Shown: one piece after another, positions 3,693 through 59,218 of the stretch
Layout: the number at the start of each line of letters is the position of its first letter
Position numbering within the stretch: the first letter of the stretch is position 1
Assembly: GCA_002423155.1 (NCBI GenBank)
Contig: DIUV01000045.1
Span: 3,276 to 67,275, forward strand
Reading direction: 5' to 3'
DNA length: 64,000 nucleotides
Origin: Alphaproteobacteria bacterium UBA6149
Lineage (GTDB): Bacteria; Pseudomonadota; Alphaproteobacteria; Rickettsiales; UBA998
Program-made: the position numbers and the translations under genes
Notes under the pieces: model-generated
Databases searched by the model: none
What the model was told of the DNA's origin: nothing
Seen by the model: only the letters and a program-made list of their open reading frames with translations

Positions 3693-3820
3693 GGCACAAT
3701 TTCTTCTATTTTGGTTGAATAGCGTTTTTCTAAAGCAAAACCGCCTTTATCGCAAATAGATTATTGCGCCAAATTGCACCATCCGCAAATAAAAAATATA
3801 TTCTACCCAACCGACACTGC

Positions 3821-3980
3821 TTCCCCCTCTCCCTCTGGGAGAGGGACGGGGTGAGGGAAGCCTAACTAAAATACAAAGCTTTCTGTCGCTATAATATGTT
3901 GATATTAAAACAACAAAATAGCAAAAAAATTTTATGGATAGTTCCCTCACCCCATCCCTCTCCCAGAGGGAGAGGGAGTT
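3821..3980. repeat. Family-A double-hairpin palindromic element (intergenic copy)
   Basis: The left arm (3821-3860, ttccccctctccctctgggagagggacggggtgagggaag) and the right arm (3942-3978) are near-perfect reverse complements. The same arms recur at 17014-17123, with a half copy at 32833-32857. Confidence 0.85.
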
Positions 3981-16902: not shown

Positions 16903-17733
16903 TTGTATGACAATTTGATGACAATTAACCAAAACCACATAAGCAAAAATTTCTCCCAAGCTGCCCACCAATATGATGCGCATGCCCATTTACAAAAACA
17001 GGTGGCAGAAAACTCCCTCTCCCTCTGGGAGAGGGTCGGGGTGAGGGAAGTATCTGCAAATTCGAATTCTTTCTTTGTGTTGAAGCTTCCCTCACCCCAG
17101 CCCTCTCCCAGAGGGAGAGGGAGTTTAGCCCTTGACCTGGGCTGTGGCACTGGTTATCTATCGCAGCTCCTACCAAAACAAAAAATCTACCAACTAGATA
17201 TATCCGAGAACATGTGCCGCCTTGCCCAGCGCAAAAACCCGAGCATCTGCGCGGATGCCCATACTTTGCCCTTTGCAAACGCCAGCTTTTCGCTAATATT
17301 TTCCTCCCTCTGCCTGCAATGGGCAATCAACAAACCGAAAACATTGGAAGAAATCTACCGCGTCCTCCAACCCAATGCCCACGCCATCATCAGCGTACTC
17401 GGCACCCAAACCTTGCAAGAACTCCGCCAAGCTTATACCTGCGCGCACATTCCCTCCCCCCTATTAAATTTTTTAACCTTAGAAGAATGGAGCAACCTAG
17501 CGCAGACGGCTGGTTTAAAAATCCTCACCCAACATAGCGAAATAATCACCCAAACCCATGAATCTCCGCTGGCACTGATGCGCTCATTAAAAAACATCGG
17601 CGCCAATACCCCAAGCATTACCATTAAAGGACTAAACGGACGCCAAACCTTGCGAAAAGTTGAAAATGCCTATATTGGTAAGCAAGCCAGCTTTGAAGTA
17701 ATTTATTTAGTCTTACAAAAATGCCCCCTCTAA
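16903..17733 (+). CDS. bioC: Malonyl-ACP O-methyltransferase (BioC-type SAM methyltransferase) carrying an in-frame repeat insertion
   Basis: ISKNFSQAAHQYDAHAHLQKQVAE, then the SAM motif LDLGCGTGYLSQLL. It overlaps bioD by 13 nt. Codons at about 17014-17123 derive from the family-A repeat (LSLWERVGVRE...PSPQPSPRGRGS). Confidence 0.8.
   Translation: MYDNLMTINQNHISKNFSQAAHQYDAHAHLQKQVAENSLSLWERVGVREVSANSNSFFVLKLPSPQPSPRGRGSLALDLGCGTGYLSQLLPKQKIYQLDISENMCRLAQRKNPSICADAHTLPFANASFSLIFSSLCLQWAINKPKTLEEIYRVLQPNAHAIISVLGTQTLQELRQAYTCAHIPSPLLNFLTLEEWSNLAQTAGLKILTQHSEIITQTHESPLALMRSLKNIGANTPSITIKGLNGRQTLRKVENAYIGKQASFEVIYLVLQKCPL
17014..17123. repeat. Family-A palindromic element inside bioC
   Basis: Arms at 17014-17050 and 17087-17123 are reverse complements of each other and near-identical to the arms at 3821-3980. 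Confidence 0.85.
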
Positions 17734-18551
17734 ACAGAAAATTTTTCATCAGCGCAACCGGCACGAATATGGGCAAAACCTTCGTCACCTGCCTATTAAC
17801 TCGCCAATTAATCGCTAGTGGCGAAAAAGTCCGCGCTATTAAACCAGTAATCAGCGGATTTTCCGAGCCAAGCACGAGCGATAGCGGACTTTTGCTTGCT
17901 GCCCAGAATCTATCTTCGCATGACTTAGAAAAAATCTCCCCTTGGCGTTTTGCTGCGCCCATCAGCCCCCACGCAGCAGACAGCGAAAAAACCATTTCCC
18001 TTGATAAACTAACCGCTTTTTGCCAACCCAAAACGCAAGAGATATTACTAATCGAAGGCGCAGGCGGAATCATGACCCCCCTCACCGACCATGCCACCAA
18101 TCTTGATTGGGCAAACGAACTAAACGCGCAAATAATATTAGTAATCGGCGATTATCTGGGAACTTTAAGCCACACGCTTACCGCTATAGAAGCCATAAAA
18201 ACCCGTAACTTACCCATAGCGGCAGTTATAATAAATCAATTTACCGCAAGTAGCCAACCAAAGCAAAGTAACCAATCGCTAATTTCATTATTTTTTTCAC
18301 AACACTTTCCGTTGTCATCCCGCCGCAGGGCGGGATCCATGCCTAACCACGAACTGTTCAGCCAATTGATTGACATGGATCCCGCCCTGCGGCGGGATGA
18401 CAACAAAGAATTTGGAGAAAAAAACATACCTGATAAATTTACCAATACCCGACAAACCTTACAAACTTTCCACCCCCAGATAAAATTTATGCTATTACCA
18501 AAAGCCACAAAAAATGTTAAGCTACCTGACTTAACAGGAATATGCACATGA
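17721..18551 (+). CDS. bioD: Dethiobiotin synthetase carrying an in-frame long-form repeat insertion
   Basis: The N-terminal P-loop is FFISATGTNMGKTFV, followed by LLIEGAGGIMTPL. At 276 aa it is about 60 aa longer than a typical BioD, and the excess maps to the family-B element at about 18260-18450. Confidence 0.8.
   Translation: MPPLNRKFFISATGTNMGKTFVTCLLTRQLIASGEKVRAIKPVISGFSEPSTSDSGLLLAAQNLSSHDLEKISPWRFAAPISPHAADSEKTISLDKLTAFCQPKTQEILLIEGAGGIMTPLTDHATNLDWANELNAQIILVIGDYLGTLSHTLTAIEAIKTRNLPIAAVIINQFTASSQPKQSNQSLISLFFSQHFPLSSRRRAGSMPNHELFSQLIDMDPALRRDDNKEFGEKNIPDKFTNTRQTLQTFHPQIKFMLLPKATKNVKLPDLTGICT
18260..18450. repeat. Family-B nested palindromic element (copy B1) inside bioD
   Basis: The core at 18311-18404 (gttgtcatcccgccgcagggcgggatccatgcc ... 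catggatcccgccctgcggcgggatgacaac) is a perfect-looking inverted repeat. The left flank (accaatcgctaatttcattattttttt) matches the outer arm of copies B3/B8/B9. The right outer arm is degenerate, so the boundaries are approximate. Confidence 0.75.
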
Positions 18552-19156
18552 AAGAACAGCTCGAAAAATTACTAAAATGGCAGCCTAAACCTCTGTTCAG
18601 CTCCCGCCCAATAGAAGATTCACAAACAGGCATGTATTATGCCAGCACCAATGACCGAGTTTTTGCTTCGGTAATTGATACTGCATGGACATCTTTTTTA
18701 TTATTACCTTTATTCAGCTGGTTAGACCAATTATTCTTCACAGGAATGGACGCATCACAATTTCTACTTAGCCTGAGCACCGCCCCCAGCGTGCAAGAAA
18801 AACTAGAAATAATCCAAAATAGCGGCGCTATTAACCGCATATTAGGCAATAATTTAATACAAACCACCATCTTATCCGCCATCATTTTAAGCCTATGGTT
18901 TTACGGCGGAACCACCCCGGGTAAGTGGCTATTAAAAATGCGCATAGTCGATGCAAAAACAGGTGCGGCTCCCTCACGCAAACAATTTATAAAAAGGCTC
19001 CTCGGCTACATCCCCTCCGCCTTATTTTTCATGCTGGGATTTTTCTGGATTAGCTGGGACAAAAAACGCCAAGGCTGGCATGACAAAATCGCCAACACGG
19101 TGGTAATTAAAGAAAAAAAATGGTCGCATCCAAGGAAAAAGTATCAGCAATTCTAA
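18542..19156 (+). CDS. RDD-family membrane protein
   Basis: The C-terminal half (GKWLLKMRIVDAKTGAAPSRKQFIKRLLGY...GWHDKIANTVVI) has the RDD-domain pattern with TM helices. It overlaps the bioD end. Confidence 0.7.
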   Translation: MHMKEQLEKLLKWQPKPLFSSRPIEDSQTGMYYASTNDRVFASVIDTAWTSFLLLPLFSWLDQLFFTGMDASQFLLSLSTAPSVQEKLEIIQNSGAINRILGNNLIQTTILSAIILSLWFYGGTTPGKWLLKMRIVDAKTGAAPSRKQFIKRLLGYIPSALFFMLGFFWISWDKKRQGWHDKIANTVVIKEKKWSHPRKKYQQF

Positions 19157-19332
19157 AACCATTTTTTATCCGCCAAAATATCCTTGTCATACCAGCGTAG
19201 GCTGGTATCCATGCCTATCCGCAAGAGAAATTTCTCAATAAATTATAGAATTCACCGTTATAGATAGGCATGGATACCGCCCTGCGGCGGTATGACAACG
19301 GATATTTTGGCGGATAAAAAATAGTTTTAGAA
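19151..19332. repeat. Family-B nested palindromic element (copy B2)
   Basis: The outer inverted repeat is ttctaaaaccattttttatccgccaaaatatcc (19151-19183) against ggatattttggcggataaaaaatagttttagaa (19300-19332). The inner core is gtcataccagcgtaggctggtatccatgcc / ggcatggataccgccctgcggcggtatgac. Confidence 0.85.
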
Positions 19333-19364
19333 TTGCTGAAAAAGTAGGGTTTAAAAAAGTAAGA

Positions 19365-27001: not shown

Positions 27002-27192
27002 TAGACTAAATAATAAACTAATTGTAGCAACACATCTGCGCCGTTTTTTCCTCTTCAAAATCCTCACGTAGCACAGCTACGCTGCCCCTTCTCTAAAAAC
27101 ATGACATTAAGTCATGTTTTTTAAACGTTCAGGGTTTCATCAGAAAGAAACGACACATCTGCGTTACTACAATTAGTTTATGGTGCAGTCTA
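27002..27192. repeat. Family-E palindromic element
   Basis: The terminal inverted repeats are tagact..ataaactaattgtagcaac (27002-27030) and gttactacaattagtttat..agtcta (27163-27192). The internal hairpin is aaaaacatgac-attaa-gtcatgttttt. Confidence 0.7.
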
Positions 27193-28291: not shown

Positions 28292-28332
28292 ATAACTATA
28301 AAACAATGAGAAGAAAGGCCAAAAATAATTAG

Positions 28333-28526
28333 CAGGGCAAAAGCACCAATCGTTAATTTTGTCTTTTTGCGATAAAATTCACCATTGTCATACCGCTGTA
28401 GAGCGGTATCCATGCCAAACCATTGGCTTTTCAGCTTGTTGATAGGCATGGATACCGTCCTGCGACGGTATGACGATGGATAATTTAGTAAAAACAACGA
28501 AATTAACGATTTATGATTTTGCCCTG
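28333..28526. repeat. Family-B long-form nested palindromic element (copy B3)
   Basis: A palindrome of about 194 bp, from cagggcaaaagcaccaatcgttaattttgtcttttt... to ...aacgaaattaacgatttatgattttgccctg. The core is gtcataccgctgtagagcggtatccatgcc / ggcatggataccgtcctgcgacggtatgac. Confidence 0.85.
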
Positions 28527-28649
28527 AAAATAATTATAAGAAAAGATTGACTTTTATATTCCCGACCATTAGAAGAAACCCTCTTTTAAAAGCTTAGAGC
28601 TTGTTAAAAAGTTCTTATTTTAAGAAATATTATTATTTTAAGAAATAAG

Positions 28650-32764: not shown

Positions 32765-32832
32765 TTTTTACTATTATCTGACCACCCAACAGATTATTAT
32801 TTACCCAATAAATAGCCAAAAACAAGGACTAA

Positions 32833-32857
32833 CCCCCTCTCCCTCTGGAAGAGGGGG
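32833..32857. repeat. Half copy of the family-A element forming a GC hairpin between convergent ubiD and lipA
   Basis: ccccctc-tccctctggaa-gaggggg. The sequence matches one arm of family A. It could serve as a terminator, but there is no U-tract. Confidence 0.6.
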
Positions 32858-39920: not shown

Positions 39921-40166
39921 GAACTATAGAAAGCTCTGCGAAAGCGGAGCTCAGGGCAAAATGCTAGATTGTTAATTTGGTTGTTTTTGCTAAAATCATC
40001 TCCTTTGTCATGCCGCTGTAGAGCGGCATCCATGCCAAGCCATTGGCTTGATAGCTAGTTGATAGGCATGGATACCGTCCTTCGACGGTATGACAATGGA
40101 TAATTTAATAAAAAAAGAAAAATTAACGATTTAGCATTTCACCGTGAAGCAGAGATTTCTATAGTT
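39921..40166. repeat. Family-B long-form nested palindromic element (copy B4) with an extra outer inverted repeat
   Basis: The outermost inverted repeat is gaactatagaaagctctgc (39921-39939) against gcagagatttctatagtt (40149-40166). The inner arms and core are as in B3/B8/B9. Confidence 0.85.
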
Positions 40167-40226
40167 TTTTTGTTTTATGGGATCATTCTACTTTAAAATT
40201 CTCCACAAAATATTGGAATTGCTATA

Positions 40227-40429
40227 GGCTCGCTCGCACTACCCGACACTTTTTATTTTTTTTCGTGCTCTCCGTCGTCATCCCCGCCTTATGCGGGGAT
40301 CTAGGGCTACAAATTCGGTCTTTTTTGTGTCCCGAGATCCCCGCACAAGGCGGGGATGACAACCGAGTGTGTTGGTATTTAATAAACATTTTATAGCACA
40401 AAAAAAGTGTCGGGTAGTGTGAGGCTCGC
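40227..40429. repeat. Family-B variant nested palindrome (copy B5)
   Basis: The outer inverted repeat is gcactacccgacacttttt / aaaaagtgtcgggtagtg. The inner one is gtcgtcatccccgcc..ggggatct / agatccccgc..ggcggggatgacaac. It is preceded by a family-C fragment (ttggaattgctatagg, 40213-40229). Confidence 0.8.
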
Positions 40430-40522
40430 TAAGCGGTATTGTCTGATTACAATGATTTTATTTGCATTTATATACAACCTATGAAAGAATGAATAATCAA
40501 AATAACAATCAAGGATGGTAAT

Positions 40523-41017
40523 ATGTGCCCACAATATAATAGTGCAGCAAATATAGAATCCGTAAATTCACCATCAATATCTTTCAAATTTCGCACATTA
40601 GAAGATGTGCAAATAATATCTGAGCAAGTATCTAATCTATGCCCACACCCCTCTCAAGCAATTTTGGGGATTATAGAAATGATGTTAAATGCGGTTGAAC
40701 ATGGCAATCTTGGTATAGAATATTTTGAAAAAACTAAGCTCATGTTTGAAAATAATTGGCATAAAGAAATTGAAAAACGCTTAAAAATGCCACAAAACCT
40801 AGATAAATTTGCCACCATAAGTTTAGATAAAACTAAAACCCAAACCATAATCACCATAAAAGACCAAGGAAATGGCTTTGATTGGAAAAATTATCTGGAT
40901 ATATCCCCCGAAAGAATGGCAGACCCAAATGGTAAAGGCATTGCCATTAGCCGCATGTCTTTCAATGAAATAAAATATAATGACTGCGGAAATGAAGTTG
41001 TGTGCTTTATCGGTTAG
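40523..41017 (+). CDS. Stand-alone GHKL ATPase-domain protein, RsbW/SpoIIAB-like (anti-sigma-factor-type Ser kinase fold)
   Basis: N-box EMMLNAVEHGN, G1 KDQGNGFDW, G2 GKGIAISRM. 164 aa. There is no STAS or PP2C partner gene nearby. Confidence 0.6.
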   Translation: MCPQYNSAANIESVNSPSISFKFRTLEDVQIISEQVSNLCPHPSQAILGIIEMMLNAVEHGNLGIEYFEKTKLMFENNWHKEIEKRLKMPQNLDKFATISLDKTKTQTIITIKDQGNGFDWKNYLDISPERMADPNGKGIAISRMSFNEIKYNDCGNEVVCFIG

Positions 41018-41046
41018 TTTTTTTCATCGCCGCACAAAAAATCAGA

Positions 41047-41305
41047 GCAATTTCCACCCTACACGACAGTACCGTTAATATTACGAAGCTATTGAATGGT
41101 AAGTATTTATTTCTTAAAATCGCTCTCTCCGTCGTCATTCCTGCTGCGGCTAAGAATCTCTTTTTCCGCTTGTGAGTGCCTCGTTTAGGGCGAAAGAGAT
41201 TCTTAGCCGCAGCAGGAATGACGACGGAGAGAGCGAACTTTTTTATTGTATTTCAATATATAAATGCCTTGTTAATACTACTGTCGTGTAGGGTGAGCAA
41301 TTTCA
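41047..41305. repeat. Family-B variant nested palindrome (copy B6)
   Basis: The outer inverted repeat is caccctacacgacagta / tactgtcgtgtagggtg. The inner one is cgctctctccgtcgtcattcctgctgcggctaagaatctcttt / aaagagattcttagccgcagcaggaatgacgacggagagagcg. Confidence 0.8.
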
Positions 41306-41562
41306 CCAATTATTAAGATCTTAACTATTGTTTTTCTATACACAACAATGCCATCAATAACAGATCCATAATATTGATATATAATATTTTTTATGAAGAA
41401 TACATCCATCGTAATCCCGCCGCAGGGCGGGATCCAGGTTTAGCCACATACTGCGTATTCGTGGTTAGGCATGGATCCCGCCCTGCGGCGGGATGACAAC
41501 GTCTTGTTCTATAACAATACTAAAAAACAATAGTTAAAATTTTAATAATTGGTGAAATTTCC
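41297..41562. repeat. Family-B nested palindrome (copy B7), abutting B6
   Basis: The outer inverted repeat is gcaatttcaccaattattaagatcttaactattgttttt / aaaaacaatagttaaaattttaataattggtgaaattt. The core is cgtaatcccgccgcagggcgggatcc / ggatcccgccctgcggcgggatgacaacg. Confidence 0.8.
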
Positions 41563-41749
41563 CTGCACAAAAAATATCTTGACATTTCTTAAGCAAGTAT
41601 TAAGAAGAGGTTGTTACTTTCCTTTTTTGTCAGGTTCATTAGAATTTTACGGATTAGGCTAAGCTGACTTAAGGCACACATAGATGTGGGCTGGATGTTT
41701 GCAAGGATAGCTTCAAAATTTAATTTTTTAAAATTTCGGAGTTCCAATC

Positions 41750-51272: not shown

Positions 51273-51333
51273 AATAATAAACCCAGCAATCCCTAGCGCA
51301 AATGTTCTATATATAGCAAGCAGTTTTTGTTAT

Positions 51334-51522
51334 GGCAATTTCACCAATCGTTAATTTTGTCTTTTTGCAATAAAACTCTCTATTGTCATGCAGCACGTAG
51401 AGCGGCATCCATGCAAAACCATTGGCTTATCCGCTAGTTGATAGGCATGGATACCGCCCTGCGGCGGCATGACAATAGATATTTTAGTGAAAAAAGACAA
51501 AATTAACGATTGGTGAAATCGC
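51334..51522. repeat. Family-B long-form nested palindromic element (copy B8)
   Basis: ggcaatttcaccaatcgttaattttgtctttttg ... caaaattaacgattggtgaaatcgc. The core is gtcatgcagcacgtagagcggcatccatgc / ggcatggataccgccctgcggcggcatgac. Confidence 0.85.
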
Positions 51523-51631
51523 ACTGTAGTTTTTGCGAGATATAAAATTCATAATAAAATACCTAATTGCATCAAGCTACATCTCCTGTTACTTATCCAA
51601 CAAGTTTGCAAAAAAATTGAAAGGAACTATT

Positions 51632-52244: not shown

Positions 52245-53036
52245 ATGCCCATCCAATCACCATTAATTAATGTGATGGTGTCGGCGGTACGTAAAGCCTC
52301 TCGCGGATTGATGCGCGATTTTGGCGAAGTGGATCATTTGCAAATTTCGCGCAAAGGTCCTTCTGATTTTGTTACTGAAACGGATTTGCGTACCGAAAAA
52401 TTATTAAAAGCGGAGCTGCATAAATCGCGCCCTAAATTTGGTTTTTTGCTGGAAGAAAGTGGCGAATTTCCTAGCGAAGAATCCGAATTTCGCTGGGTGG
52501 TCGATCCTTTAGACGGCACGACTAATTTTATCCATGCTATACCTTATTTCTGTATTTCTATTGGGGTAGAAAAAATCACCGATAAAGGGAGTGAAATCAT
52601 TGCAGGGGTGATTTATGATCCTATCCATGATGAATTATTCATGGCGGAAAAAGACAAAGGCGCTTATCTGAATCAAAGACGTTTACGGGTTTCCCCTCGT
52701 CGTTCTGATTTTTATTTCGTTACGGGTACGTCGCGTAGTTCTAGCCCTTATGCTGGGGCATCTGCTAAGTTAAATCAACATGTTACTACGTTAGACGGCG
52801 TTTTTCGTCGCAGTGGTTCCGCCGCTTTAGATTTGGCTTATGTGGCAGCTGCGCGTTATGATGCTTGCTGGTTTCCTAATTTAAAAAAATGGGATATGGC
52901 AGCAGGAATAATTCTGGTAAAAGAAGCAGGCGGCATTATCTCGCCACTTGGTCACGCGCAAGACGCCTACCAAGATGGCGCAATCTTGGCGGCCAGCCCT
53001 GAATCTCATCCGTTATTAATTGTCGGACAATCTTAG
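52245..53036 (+). CDS. suhB: Inositol monophosphatase family protein (SuhB-like)
   Basis: WVVDPLDGTTNF, WDMAAG, and the EESG pattern. Start chosen at the ATG at 52245. Confidence 0.82.
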   Translation: MPIQSPLINVMVSAVRKASRGLMRDFGEVDHLQISRKGPSDFVTETDLRTEKLLKAELHKSRPKFGFLLEESGEFPSEESEFRWVVDPLDGTTNFIHAIPYFCISIGVEKITDKGSEIIAGVIYDPIHDELFMAEKDKGAYLNQRRLRVSPRRSDFYFVTGTSRSSSPYAGASAKLNQHVTTLDGVFRRSGSAALDLAYVAAARYDACWFPNLKKWDMAAGIILVKEAGGIISPLGHAQDAYQDGAILAASPESHPLLIVGQS

Positions 53037-53198
53037 AACCTGTCGCCAATCTTTTTATTTTGGCAATTTTTTCTAGTTTTGAGCGAAAATAGCAAGACAA
53101 TTCGAGAGTATAGCTATTCTATTTCAAGAATTGTCTTGCTATTTGCAGCCAAAATTGGGAGAAATGGACAAATAAAAAGATTGGCGACAGGTTCTTAA
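53033..53198. repeat. Family-D palindromic element
   Basis: The terminal inverted repeat is agaacctgtcgccaatctttttatt / aataaaaagattggcgacaggttct. The inner one is aaaatagcaagacaattc / gaattgtcttgctatttg. The left end overlaps the suhB-like stop codon. Confidence 0.8.
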
Positions 53199-58897: not shown

Positions 58898-58985
58898 AAT
58901 ACCTAACCCCTATAGTAGTTTTTGTGCAATGCATATAAAACCGCAAGTAACCGCAGAAGTAAAGCAAAAATATGCTTTTTATCAA

Positions 58986-59174
58986 GGCGATTTCCCCAAT
59001 CGTTAATTTTGTCTTTTTGTAATAAAACTCTCCATTGTCATGCAGCACGAAGAGCGGCATCCATGCCAAACCATGGGCTTATCCGCTAGTTGATAGGCAT
59101 GGATACCGTCCTACGACGGTATGACAAGAGATATTTTAGTGAAAAAATGTCAAATTAACGATTGGTGAAATCGC
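58986..59174. repeat. Family-B long-form nested palindromic element (copy B9)
   Basis: ggcgatttccccaatcgttaattttgtctttttg ... gtcaaattaacgattggtgaaatcgcc. It is nearly identical to B8. Confidence 0.85.
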
Positions 59175-59218
59175 CCTGTGCTTTTTATGCATTAGTTCCG
59201 CACTGGATATTATCTAAA

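What the first reader, a model, noticed from the sequence alone, without database searches (positions are those of the whole stretch)
39921..41562. Hotspot of four consecutive nested-palindrome (family-B) elements; the family has nine copies in this window
There are nine family-B copies:
- B1: about 18260-18450
- B2: 19151-19332
- B3: 28333-28526
- B4: 39921-40166
- B5: 40227-40429
- B6: 41047-41305
- B7: 41297-41562
- B8: 51334-51522
- B9: 58986-59174

They share an architecture of concentric inverted repeats. There is an outer AT-rich arm (ggcRatttcaccaatcgttaattttgtctttttg...) and an inner G+C-rich core (gtcatNccgc..gcgg.atccatgcc // ggcatggat.ccg.cctgcg.cgg.atgac). Each half of the core is itself a hairpin. 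B3, B4, B8 and B9 are near-identical at about 190 bp, while B5 and B6 have different cores within the same design. No transposase is visible. The 1.6-kb stretch between ftsZ and the pel region consists almost entirely of these elements plus one small gene. The design (hairpin within hairpin, about 190 bp) resembles MITEs or RPEs, but I do not recognise the sequence.
Basis: seen in the sequence. Interest (0 to 1): 0.55.

Follow-up and report, generated by a model that had tools for sequence, protein, structure and literature searches.

The report
Miniature transposons carrying known hairpin repeats
The nine "family-B" repeats are real, roughly 190-bp non-coding mobile elements (MITEs) whose centre is a pair of a widespread, already described bacterial hairpin repeat (CGTC-type REP); this makes them a new example of a known kind of element rather than a new kind.

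Summary
Nine nested-palindrome elements exist at about the stated places, and four independent public assemblies reproduce the hotspot base for base. Eight of the nine are flanked by exact 8-11-bp direct repeats (the ninth matches 8/10), so they are true insertions. B6 sits inside the left end of B7. B4 split the ftsZ terminator hairpin. B1 is a 66-codon in-frame insertion in bioD. Each element is an outer terminal inverted repeat (TIR), then a conserved ~88-bp core, then the inverted TIR. The core is an inverted pair of CGTC-tagged REP hairpins: TGTC/CGTC tag, 8-bp stem, 4-5-nt loop, CCA tail. This superfamily was described in 2013; it includes Neisseria dRS3/NTS and Rickettsia RPE-6, and in other bacteria it is bound by the GIY-YIG ssDNA nuclease Ssn. 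The main TIR class begins CAGGGC and makes 9-10-bp duplications, which is the signature of ISAs1-family insertion sequences. No transposase or ssn gene lies in the ~76 kb available. In a Kapaibacterium MAG the same core sits in a different MITE with 5-bp duplications. The closest precedent is Coxiella QMITE2. Verdict: a new member of a known kind, of moderate interest, because it shows how "transposase-less" CGTC repeats can travel.

The parts
18246..18435 (+). B1: degraded type-I element (right arm internally deleted) inserted in frame in bioD (ORF 17721-18551). It is flanked by the direct repeat AATTTACC at 18238-18245 and 18436-18443.
   Evidence: The repeat offset is 198 bp = 66 codons, and the ORF reads through. 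Excising the element gives a 210-aa BioD that 214-226-aa homologues cover to 95-99%. The core hairpins are listed.
19144..19338 (+). B2: element with variant type-I ends ((T)CAGCAATTC...), different arms and a longer 51-nt core spacer. It overlaps the stop region of the RDD-family ORF 18542-19156. TSD GAAAAAGTA at 19135-19143 and 19338-19346.
   Evidence: I14: 40-nt arms, 98% complementary; z = -16 to -22.
28332..28526 (+). B3: type-Ia element between a GGDEF gene and a tRNA gene. TSD AAAATAATTA at 28322-28331 and 28527-28536.
39921..39951 (+). Left part of the ftsZ intrinsic terminator split by B4: ascending stem, GAAA loop and the first copy of the duplicated target AAGCGGAGCT (39942-39951).
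   Evidence: The reconstructed empty site is a perfect 19-bp stem with a GAAA loop and a T7 run, directly after the ftsZ stop (the 100-nt reconstructed site folds at -33.5 kcal/mol).
39952..40146 (+). B4: type-Ia element with ends CAGGGC.../...CACCGTG and a core made of two different hairpins (CCGCT/AGCGG and CCGTC/GACGG).
   Evidence: The MFE structure shows the two small hairpins folded separately inside the long stem.
40147..40173 (+). Second, diverged copy of the B4 target duplication (AAGCAGAGAT, 8/10 identical), followed by the descending terminator stem and the T-run.
40235..40421 (+). B5: type-II element with ends C(G/A)CACTACCCGACAC. Its core hairpins have 5-nt loops (CGTC-2-like: GTC-ATCCCCGC-CTTAT-GCGGGGAT-CTA). 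TSD AGGCTCGCT at 40226-40234 and 40422-40430.
   Evidence: (I20).
40523..41017 (+). Small gene lying between the elements. It encodes a 164-aa protein with a weak histidine-kinase-like ATPase (HATPase_c_2) match and is a bystander, not part of any element.
   Evidence: E = 6e-6, just under Pfam's cut-off.
41043..41565 (-). B7: type-Ib element with ends CAGAGCAATTTCACCAATTATTAA... It is 273 bp without B6, and its left terminal repeat is interrupted by B6. TSD CACAAAAAAT at 41033-41042 and 41566-41575, immediately after the small gene's stop. Its core shares a 44-nt identical stretch with B1, in the opposite orientation.
   Evidence: (I6).
41055..41295 (.). B6: type-II element with ends CACCCTACACGACAGTA and a degenerate core (a perfect 44-nt palindrome arm containing GTCATTCC...). 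It is nested inside B7. TSD AGCAATTTC at 41046-41054 and 41296-41304.
   Evidence: (I8, D19). Removing B6 plus one duplicate restores B7's terminal CAGAGCAATTTCACC.
51330..51527 (+). B8: type-Ia element between a tRNA gene and efp. TSD AGTTTTTG at 51322-51329 and 51528-51535.
58983..59178 (+). B9: type-Ia element, 91% identical to B8, lying between two genes on the minus strand. TSD TGCTTTTTAT at 58973-58982 and 59179-59188.
   Evidence: (D4).

Best explanation
Family B is a set of non-autonomous DNA transposons (MITEs) of about 190 bp. Each is built as terminal inverted repeat arm (~42-68 bp), then a conserved ~88-bp core, then the inverted arm.

The core is an inverted pair of CGTC-tagged REP hairpins: tag (C/T)GTC, an 8-bp stem beginning AT, a 4- or 5-nt loop, and a tail CCA.

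Shown here:
- The whole unit inserts as double-stranded DNA with 8-11-bp staggered target cuts.
- It inserted into a terminator, into another copy, and in frame into a gene.
- It is copied as an asymmetric whole, because left/right-specific differences are inherited between copies.

Inferred:
- The elements are moved in trans by a DDE transposase encoded elsewhere in the genome or now lost.
- For the main class (ends CAGGGCRATTTCACC, 9-10-bp duplications) this is most likely an ISAs1-family enzyme.
- The core hairpins fold as cruciform or ssDNA hairpins and are the kind of site that GIY-YIG Ssn nucleases bind in other bacteria.
- The core is a passenger/structural module that spreads by riding in MITEs. 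This would explain how CGTC REPs, which have no dedicated transposase, multiply.
- The ftsZ-pel 'hotspot' is an AT-rich, gene-poor gap that tolerated four insertion events.
For: **Flanking duplications.** Seven of eight tested elements have exact 8-11-bp flanking direct repeats, where the chance of >=8 bp is 0.0027 per random pair. B1 adds an eighth exact 8-bp repeat. B4's duplication matches 8/10.

**Nested insertion.** B6 lies inside B7's terminal repeat with its own 9-bp duplication.

**Terminator insertion.** The empty site of B4 reconstructs a canonical terminator after ftsZ.

**In-frame gene insertion.** B1 is a 198-bp in-frame insertion in bioD, and homologues span the excised junction at 95-99% coverage.

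**Copied as a whole.** Left-left and right-right arm identity between B8 and B9 (0.90, 0.92) exceeds left-right identity within one element (0.86, 0.80).

**Core anatomy.** The core matches the published CGTC-1/-2 definition. Across 100 sites in other genomes the three free stem positions are Watson-Crick paired in 94-98%, with 27 stem types.

**ISAs1 signature.** ISAs1 inverted repeats start CAGGG and make 10-bp direct repeats. The type-I ends are CAGGGC / CAGAGC / CAAGGC.

**Independent case.** Eight Kapaibacterium copies carry the same core in a 125-bp MITE with TAGGACTTTCGCAAAC ends and 5-bp duplications, 7 of 8 exact.

**Only inside full units here.** Within the window, the core hairpins occur only inside TIR-bounded units.

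**Not an artefact.** Four independent assemblies are identical across the hotspot.
Against: - No transposase gene was found in the window or in about 12 kb of adjoining sequence from the same organism. No full-length IS with these ends was found either.
- The ISAs1 assignment rests only on the end sequence and the duplication length.
- No empty site in a sister strain could be examined, because the nearest FtsZ is only ~58-60% identical.
- Different arm families all carry the core exactly at their centre, and cores and arms assort independently: B1 and B7 have cores 0.84 identical but arms 0.45-0.49. A simple 'IS with its middle deleted' origin does not explain this.
- The type-II ends (CACNCTACNCGACA) do not start CAGGG.
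Confidence: 0.8

Rival explanations
1. Two-tier parasitism. The outer palindromes are ordinary MITEs. The CGTC hairpin dimer is a separate mobile module, moved as ssDNA by an Ssn-like GIY-YIG nuclease or another enzyme, that inserts into or is exchanged at the centre of palindromes.
For: - Cores are more conserved than arms and assort independently of them. B1 and B7 share a 44-nt identical core stretch but have unrelated arms.
- Relatives carry bare dimers without these arms.
- GIY-YIG genes flanked by the same hairpins exist in L074 and L039.
- Di Nocera et al. describe CGTC dimers 'inserted within' palindromes.
Against: - No core-less copy of any arm type occurs in the window. Di Nocera et al. 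likewise found no empty target palindromes.
- B3, B4, B8 and B9 share the same asymmetric core and spacer, so the core was already present before that subfamily amplified.
- There is no duplication or other junction signature around the inner dimer.
- No ssn gene lies in the ~76 kb held.
Confidence: 0.12
2. REPIN/RAYT-type elements: hairpin doublets moved as single-stranded DNA by a domesticated IS200-like tyrosine transposase.
For: The doublet-forming-a-long-hairpin design is the same as in REPINs (literature).
Against: - The tag is (C/T)GTC, not GTAG.
- 8-11-bp target duplications are present. From general knowledge of IS200/IS605-type single-strand transposition, that mechanism does not make such duplications.
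- Published surveys found no tyrosine transposase associated with CGTC repeats.
- There is no Y1 transposase in the window (top families only).
Confidence: 0.03
3. Host-selected structural or regulatory elements (terminators, mRNA stabilisers, sRNA genes or nucleoid-protein sites) whose repetition reflects function rather than mobility.
For: - Most copies lie at 3' ends of genes or between genes.
- Compensatory changes preserve each small hairpin.
- Promoter-like hexamers are enriched in the hotspot: 17 found against 7.4 +/- 2.8 expected.
Against: - Duplications, nesting and insertion inside a coding gene show insertion events, not in-situ evolution.
- No Rfam family matches beyond generic long-hairpin noise.
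- No T-run follows the hairpins, and no terminator-like sites were found.
- A secondary function after insertion is not excluded.
Confidence: 0.04
4. Assembly artefact: collapsed or chimeric repeats.
For: Metagenome contigs break inside B4 (40028) and B6 (41140, 41194).
Against: Four independent assemblies agree at 100% identity across B4 and B5 and into B6. Each copy has unique flanks and its own duplication. Copies differ by 9-50%.
Confidence: 0.01

Closest known systems
CGTC-tagged REPs, families CGTC-1 and CGTC-2 (Di Nocera, De Gregorio & Rocco 2013, PMC3733652)
   Same: The unpaired CGTC/TGTC tag, the 8-bp stem starting AT, the 4-nt loop (5-nt in B5), the CCA tail, the inverted dimers, the predominance in alphaproteobacteria, the intragenic copies and the lack of an adjacent transposase. 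The authors also noted H. neapolitanus dimers enclosed in 41-bp palindromes.
   Different: Here every dimer in the window lies inside a ~190-bp unit with long terminal inverted repeats and 8-11-bp target duplications. The 2013 paper did not report that feature for CGTC repeats.
Neisseria NTS/dRS3 and Ssn-related motifs bound by the GIY-YIG ssDNA nuclease SsnA (Nat Commun 2025, PMC11893778)
   Same: The same hairpin class: NTS = CGTCATTCCCGCGMAVGCGGGAATCYRG; here TGTCATCCCGCCGCAGGGCGGGATCCAT. The C after the palindrome (critical for binding) and the three bases before it (critical for cleavage) are conserved. Ssn-like genes flanked by these hairpins were seen in L074 and L039.
   Different: No ssn gene was found in the sequence available for this organism. 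Nothing here shows nuclease action. NTS repeats are not described as parts of TIR/TSD-bounded elements.
Coxiella burnetii QMITE2 (Wachter et al. 2018, PMC5896051)
   Same: A 150-190-bp MITE with 21-31-bp TIRs, unique 7-11-bp direct repeats, a REP core, 'small' versions that are bare REPs, a location at gene 3' ends, an in-frame extension of a gene, and an unknown parent transposase.
   Different: Its core is a GTAG-type REP in a gammaproteobacterium. Sequence relatedness was not tested. QMITE2 is an IS1111 target, and no such IS is seen here.
ISAs1-family insertion sequences
   Same: Terminal repeats beginning CAGGG(C) and 8-10-bp (typically 10-bp) target duplications (PMC11946415; ISArsp11 in PMC6305408).
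   Different: No ISAs1 transposase or full-length element with matching ends was found. Similarity beyond the first six bases is not evident.
REPINs and RAYT transposases
   Same: Two inverted REP hairpins that together form a larger hairpin, present in many copies per genome.
   Different: REPINs have a GTAG tag and a dedicated tyrosine transposase and make no target duplication. All three features differ here.
Rickettsia palindromic elements (RPE)
   Same: Palindromic repeats of about 100-200 bp that can sit in frame inside protein genes, as B1 does in bioD. RPE-6 and RPE-4 are listed as CGTC-1 and CGTC-4 repeats.
   Different: Direct sequence comparison with RPEs was not possible with these tools. 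As far as I recall, RPEs are not known for 9-10-bp duplications or CAGGG ends.

Membership tests
CGTC-tagged REP superfamily (CGTC-1/-2) | Unpaired terminal tag CGTC (often TGTC) | tested here: met
   All 13 clean hairpins start TGTC or CGTC.
CGTC-tagged REP superfamily (CGTC-1/-2) | Stem of 8-9 bp beginning with complementary A-T residues; loop of 4 nt (family 1) or 5 nt (family 2) | tested here: met
   The stem is 8 bp (AT(N)CCGNN). The loop is 4 nt in 11 hairpins and 5 nt in the two B5 hairpins. Compensatory stem variants occur: CCGCC, CCAGC, CCGCT, CCGTC.
CGTC-tagged REP superfamily (CGTC-1/-2) | Three-base tail, mostly CCA | tested here: met
   The tail is CCA in 11 hairpins and CTA/CTC in B5.
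CGTC-tagged REP superfamily (CGTC-1/-2) | Units mostly arranged as inverted dimers with 20-100-bp spacers | tested here: met
   Each element holds two inverted units with tags outward, separated by about 30 nt (51 nt in B2). I did not verify whether the authors would label this arrangement HH or TT.
Ssn-related motif (NTS-like) / Ssn system | Hairpin fitting the NTS/SRM consensus, with conserved bases before and after the palindrome | tested here: met
   TGTC-ATCCCGCC-GCAG-GGCGGGAT-CCAT compared with CGTC-ATTCCCGC-GMAV-GCGGGAAT-CYRG. The exact SRM search string from the paper was not available.
Ssn-related motif (NTS-like) / Ssn system | An ssnA (small GIY-YIG) gene in the genome, often flanked by the motif | tested here: inconclusive
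   There is none in the window or in L225/L229 (tblastn; ORF scan). Only about 76 kb of the genome was available.
Ssn-related motif (NTS-like) / Ssn system | Strand-specific ssDNA binding and cleavage by Ssn | not testable with these tools
   This needs a biochemical assay.
MITE (non-autonomous DDE transposon) | Terminal inverted repeats | tested here: met
   Type I ends are CAGGGCRATTTCACCAAT...; type II ends are CACNCTACNCGACA.
MITE (non-autonomous DDE transposon) | Target-site duplication of fixed length but variable sequence | tested here: met
   Exact duplications of 8-11 bp flank 8 of 9 copies, and B4 matches 8/10. The null probability of >=8 bp is 0.0027.
MITE (non-autonomous DDE transposon) | Small size, no coding capacity, multiple dispersed copies | tested here: met
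   The elements are 187-273 bp and contain only spurious ORFs. There are nine copies in 64 kb.
MITE (non-autonomous DDE transposon) | A cognate autonomous IS with the same ends | tested here: inconclusive
   None was found in the window. The metagenome scan with the TIR returned only chance matches, and there was no plasmid match.
ISAs1-family derivative | Inverted repeats of 14-22 bp starting CAGGG | tested here: met
   Five of the 12 termini of B2-B4 and B7-B9 read exactly CAGGG and six more differ at one or two positions; the consensus is CAGGGC. The definition comes, with an example. Type II ends do not fit.
ISAs1-family derivative | Direct repeats of 8-10 bp | tested here: met
ISAs1-family derivative | Mobilisation by an ISAs1 transposase present in the host | not testable with these tools
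REPIN/RAYT | GTAG tag, an associated tyrosine transposase, and no target duplication | tested here: not met
   The tag is (C/T)GTC, duplications are present, and no Y1 transposase was seen.
Rickettsia palindromic elements | In-frame insertion into protein-coding genes | tested here: met
   B1 lies in bioD as 66 codons with the frame kept, and homologues lack the insert.
Rickettsia palindromic elements | Sequence membership in RPE-1 to RPE-8 | not tested
   No RPE sequences were available. The only link is the literature statement that RPE-6 = CGTC-1.

The most novel reading that the evidence does not exclude
The CGTC hairpin dimer may not be a mere passenger but the seed of these MITEs. In one version, a palindromic dimer next to a single IS end triggers fold-back (palindrome-templated) copying of that end, creating a new two-ended, mobilisable element centred on the dimer. 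In the other, the dimer is a second-tier parasite, possibly Ssn-driven, that targets the centres of palindromes.

Either version would explain three observations:
- Unrelated arm families in one genome, and in different phyla, all carry the same core exactly at their centre.
- Cores and arms assort independently.
- 'Empty' arm pairs are never seen.

It would also give a mechanism for the spread of a repeat superfamily that has no dedicated transposase.
Probability: 0.15. Interest if true: 0.7.

Novelty: new member of a known kind. Interest (0 to 1): 0.36.

Why it matters
CGTC-type hairpin repeats (dRS3/NTS, RPE-6 and relatives) are abundant in alphaproteobacteria, Neisseria and many symbionts, yet no dedicated transposase is known for them.

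This window gives clean, sequence-level evidence that pairs of such hairpins travel inside ordinary DDE-type miniature transposons:
- unique target duplications;
- one copy inserted into another;
- a split terminator;
- an in-frame gene insertion.

It also shows that different transposon ends carry the same core: ISAs1-like ends with 9-10-bp duplications here, and a 5-bp-duplicating element in Kapaibacteria. [quoted passage not shown] Conceptually it is an incremental step, not a new class of element.

Tried and rejected
1. **Metagenome scan with the type-I end** (CAGGGCNATTTCACCAAT). The 120 loci returned all looked like chance matches, many apparently inside coding sequence, and none had an inverted partner within 4 kb.
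3. **BLAST of B8 against plasmids.** No match.
4. **Viral contigs.** The core occurs in 1 of 2.9 million contigs, so phage carriage is unlikely.
5. **Rfam**, at gathering and at E-value thresholds. Only tRNAs and sub-threshold microRNA-like long-hairpin noise.
6. **Empty-site comparison in relatives.** Impossible: every contig carrying this FtsZ is 100% identical to the window, and the next FtsZ is ~58-60% identical.
7. **Organism name.** Not on record.
8. **BioD C-terminal tail.** Pfam and PDB searches could not show homology of the tail. This was resolved instead by homologue coverage. The MAFFT picture misplaces the gap.
9. **Ideas dropped after inspection:**
   - REPIN/RAYT, because of the wrong tag and the presence of duplications.
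   - Integron attC sites: GCCTAAC/GTTAGGC occurs only in B1/B7.
   - The TwoAYGGAY RNA motif: only one ATGGAT per strand.
   - Correia-like TA duplication.
10. **Target duplications of the ~330-bp REP-containing repeat in the 'Dive100' alphaproteobacterial MAG.** These could not be resolved. Its GTACACGAC ends share an 8-mer with B6's ends, which may be chance.
11. **Orientation bias.** All four type-Ia copies lie on the same strand, which is not significant.
Full report
**Observation**

The nine family-B copies are real.
- The conserved half-site GGCATGGATNCCG-N8-CGGNATGAC occurs 11 times (<=3 mismatches), against none in 100 shuffles.
- A structure-aware scan (tag GTCA, 8-9-bp stem, 4-5-nt loop) finds 13 hairpins against 0.16 expected. 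All 13 lie inside the nine elements.
- The repeat finder recovers the families and the long inverted arms.
- Every element folds far better than dinucleotide shuffles, as RNA or DNA, with z = -9 to -22.
- Contigs from four independent public data sets (ENA ERZ27315062, JGI 3300001605, JGI 3300012990, Logan SRR943327) are 100% identical to the window through B4 and B5 and into B6. Several of them end inside an element. The elements are therefore genuine multi-copy DNA, not assembly artefacts.

**Anatomy**

Each element consists of an arm of about 42-68 bp (longer in B7), a core of 84-89 bp (111 bp in B2), and the inverted arm.

The core is two inverted copies of (C/T)GTC-AT(N)CCGNN-loop-NNCGG(N)AT-CCA, with the tags pointing outward, separated by about 30 nt.

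The small stems differ between copies by compensatory changes (CCGCC/GGCGG, CCAGC/GCTGG, CCGCT/AGCGG, CCGTC/GACGG). In B3, B4 and B9 the left and right hairpins of a single element have different stems. Each hairpin is therefore preserved in its own right, not merely as part of the long palindrome.

**They are insertions**

- *Flanking duplications.* Using the inverted-repeat termini as boundaries, seven of eight elements are flanked by exact 8-11-bp direct repeats of unrelated sequence: GAAAAAGTA, AAAATAATTA, AGGCTCGCT, (G)AGCAATTTC, (G)CACAAAAAAT, AGTTTTTG and TGCTTTTTAT. In AT-rich random pairs from the same window, a match of >=8 bp occurs with probability 0.0027.
- *Nesting.* B6 lies inside the left terminal repeat of B7. 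Removing B6 and one copy of AGCAATTTC restores B7's end CAGAGCAATTTCACC, and B7's own duplication CACAAAAAAT then flanks the composite.
- *Terminator.* B4's duplication is diverged (AAGCGGAGCT / AAGCAGAGAT). Its reconstructed empty site is a perfect 19-bp stem with a GAAA loop and a T7 run, directly after the ftsZ stop codon.
- *Gene insertion.* B1 lies within the dethiobiotin synthetase ORF. It is flanked by AATTTACC repeats exactly 198 bp (66 codons) apart, and the ORF reads through. Excising it gives a 210-aa protein that 214-226-aa BioD homologues cover to 95-99%. B1 is thus an in-frame intragenic insertion of the kind known from Rickettsia palindromic elements.

**Copied as whole units**

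Among B3, B4, B8 and B9 (78-91% identical), the left arms resemble each other, and the right arms resemble each other, more than the two arms of a single element do (B8/B9: 0.90 and 0.92 against 0.86 and 0.80). The asymmetric core and spacer are shared as well. This is what copying of a double-stranded master predicts. It argues against regeneration of one arm from the other at every transposition.

**The core is a known repeat**

Di Nocera et al. 2013 (PMC3733652) defined CGTC-tagged REPs as follows:
- a CGTC or TGTC tag;
- 8-9-bp stems beginning AT;
- 4-5-nt loops;
- a CCA tail;
- mostly inverted dimers;
- mostly in alphaproteobacteria;
- sometimes intragenic;
- 'apparently lack a dedicated transposase'.

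Neisseria dRS3 and Rickettsia RPE-6/RPE-4 are members. The hairpins here meet each of these criteria. B5 is the 5-nt-loop type.

A 2025 study (PMC11893778) showed that the Neisseria version (NTS, CGTCATTCCCGCGMAVGCGGGAATCYRG) is bound and cut, as single-stranded DNA only, by the small GIY-YIG nuclease SsnA. The ssnA gene is typically flanked by such motifs. The C after the palindrome and the three bases before it, which that study found critical, are conserved in all copies here.

In 100 distinct sites the three unconstrained stem positions are Watson-Crick paired in 94-98%, across 27 stem types. Two of those loci (L074, L039) carry ~98-aa GIY-YIG genes flanked by the hairpins, reproducing the published architecture.

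No such gene, and no transposase, lies in the window or in about 12 kb of adjoining sequence from the same organism.

**The outer arms**

Two end classes exist.
- *Type I* (B1-B4, B7-B9) begins CAGGGC (variants CAGAGC, CAAGGC, CAGCAA) followed by AATTTCACCAAT. Beyond about 19 bp the arms fall into subfamilies: B3/4/8/9, B7 and B2.
- *Type II* (B5, B6) begins C(A/G)C(A/C)CTAC(C/A)CGACA, with 12 of 16 positions shared between the two elements.

Both classes make 9-10-bp duplications and end CA...TG.

ISAs1-family insertion sequences have 14-22-bp inverted repeats starting CAGGG and 10-bp direct repeats (PMC11946415). One example is ISArsp11: CAGGGCTGATGCAAAGTCG with a 10-bp duplication (PMC6305408). 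Type I fits that signature. This is an inference from ends and duplication length only.

**Modularity and other lineages**

- Cores are more conserved across subfamilies (0.69-0.92) than arms (0.45-0.90).
- B1 and B7 share a 44-nt identical core stretch but have unrelated arms.
- Homology to related Rickettsiales MAG loci is confined to the ~90-bp core, which occurs there without these arms.
- In a Kapaibacterium MAG the same core sits in a 125-bp element with TAGGACTTTCGCAAAC ends and 5-bp duplications, 7 of 8 exact.
- An alphaproteobacterial MAG carries the core in a ~330-bp repeat with GTACACGAC ends.

The same hairpin dimer is therefore carried by MITEs with different ends and different duplication lengths.

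**Mechanism**

Shown: DDE-style insertion of whole ~190-bp units with 8-11-bp staggered target cuts, repeated in this locus four times.

Inferred:
- mobilisation in trans by an ISAs1-like transposase for type I;
- the CGTC dimer as a conserved structural or passenger module that gains copies by riding in MITEs;
- possible recognition of the hairpins by an Ssn-type nuclease.

The hotspot is most simply an AT-rich gap that tolerates insertions. The targets are mostly A/T runs.

**Rivals**

- *Separately mobile core that targets palindrome centres.* The modularity supports this. Against it are the absence of core-less arm pairs and the shared asymmetric core within the Ia subfamily.
- *REPIN/RAYT.* Rejected on the tag, on the duplications, and on the published lack of any association with tyrosine transposases.
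- *Purely functional RNA or DNA elements.* This does not explain the duplications, the nesting or the gene insertion.
- *Artefact.* Excluded by the four identical assemblies.

**Comparison and novelty**

The closest precedent is Coxiella QMITE2 (PMC5896051). It is 150-190 bp with 21-31-bp TIRs, unique 7-11-bp direct repeats and a REP core. 'Small' copies are bare REPs, it produces an in-frame gene extension, and its parent is unknown. Its REP, however, is of the GTAG type.

Di Nocera et al. also noted CGTC dimers enclosed in palindromes in H. neapolitanus.

What is new here is modest:
- a previously undescribed MITE family, in an uncultured alphaproteobacterium, that carries CGTC dimers;
- clear duplication and nesting evidence;
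- ISAs1-like ends;
- an independent case in another phylum.

I found no paper describing this, but the searchable library is incomplete. I rate it a new member of a known kind with moderate interest.

**Limits**

- The parent transposase was not found.
- My single metagenome scan was wasted on a pattern that was too short.
- The genome scan was truncated.
- No sister strain exists in the collections for an empty-site test.
- The organism could not be named. It is most likely an alphaproteobacterium: the only named FtsZ relatives are Alphaproteobacteria, Rickettsiales and Pseudomonadota MAGs at <=60% identity, and its 16S gene stands apart from any 23S gene.

Noticed in passing
window 3817-3980, 17010-17126, 32777-32855: This is a second, unrelated G+C-rich palindromic repeat family (CCCTCTCCCTCTGGGAGAGGG-ACGGGGTGAGGG). 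It occurs twice as inverted doublets with 35-56-nt spacers and once as a single unit. A similar motif lies next to a CGTC dimer in Rickettsiales MAG locus L075.
   Followed up: partly
window 27002-27192 and 53035-53195: These are two further nested palindromes of about 160-190 bp in intergenic gaps, with no CGTC core and no obvious flanking duplication. They are not core-less copies of the type-I or type-II arms.
   Followed up: partly
window 17721-18551: The bioD ORF is 276 aa instead of about 210 aa because element B1 adds 66 in-frame codons, including the tell-tale peptide MDPALRRDD. They fall between the last conserved strand and the C-terminal helix. Whether the enzyme still works is unknown.
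   Followed up: yes
L229 4233-6341 (same organism, about 3-5 kb upstream of window position 1): This is a 16S rRNA gene on the minus strand, flanked by a chemoreceptor gene and an RNase D-like gene, with no adjacent 23S gene. From general knowledge, an unlinked 16S is typical of Rickettsiales-like alphaproteobacteria.
   Followed up: no
window 1-28000 versus 28000-64000: GC skew is strongly negative (-0.07 to -0.23) over the first 28 kb and near zero afterwards. The cumulative skew bottoms out around 36-44 kb, near the hotspot. I did not separate the effect of gene orientation from that of replication.
   Followed up: no
window 40523-41017: This is an orphan 164-aa gene with a borderline histidine-kinase-like ATPase (anti-sigma-factor-type) match. 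It is boxed in by B5 upstream and B7/B6 downstream. The exact protein is on record only on contigs of this organism.
   Followed up: partly
L074 3520-4450 and L039 3590-4700: Here ~98-aa GIY-YIG (Ssn-like) genes are flanked by CGTC hairpin dimers. In L074 the gene is followed by a tandem array of at least four ~120-bp units, each containing a dimer (BIME-like).
   Followed up: partly
L225 about position 71 (about 2.9 kb beyond the window's right end): A type-II terminal repeat (TACTCTACACGACAGT, 1 mismatch) lies near the end of the JGI contig. This suggests a tenth element at which that assembly broke.
   Followed up: no
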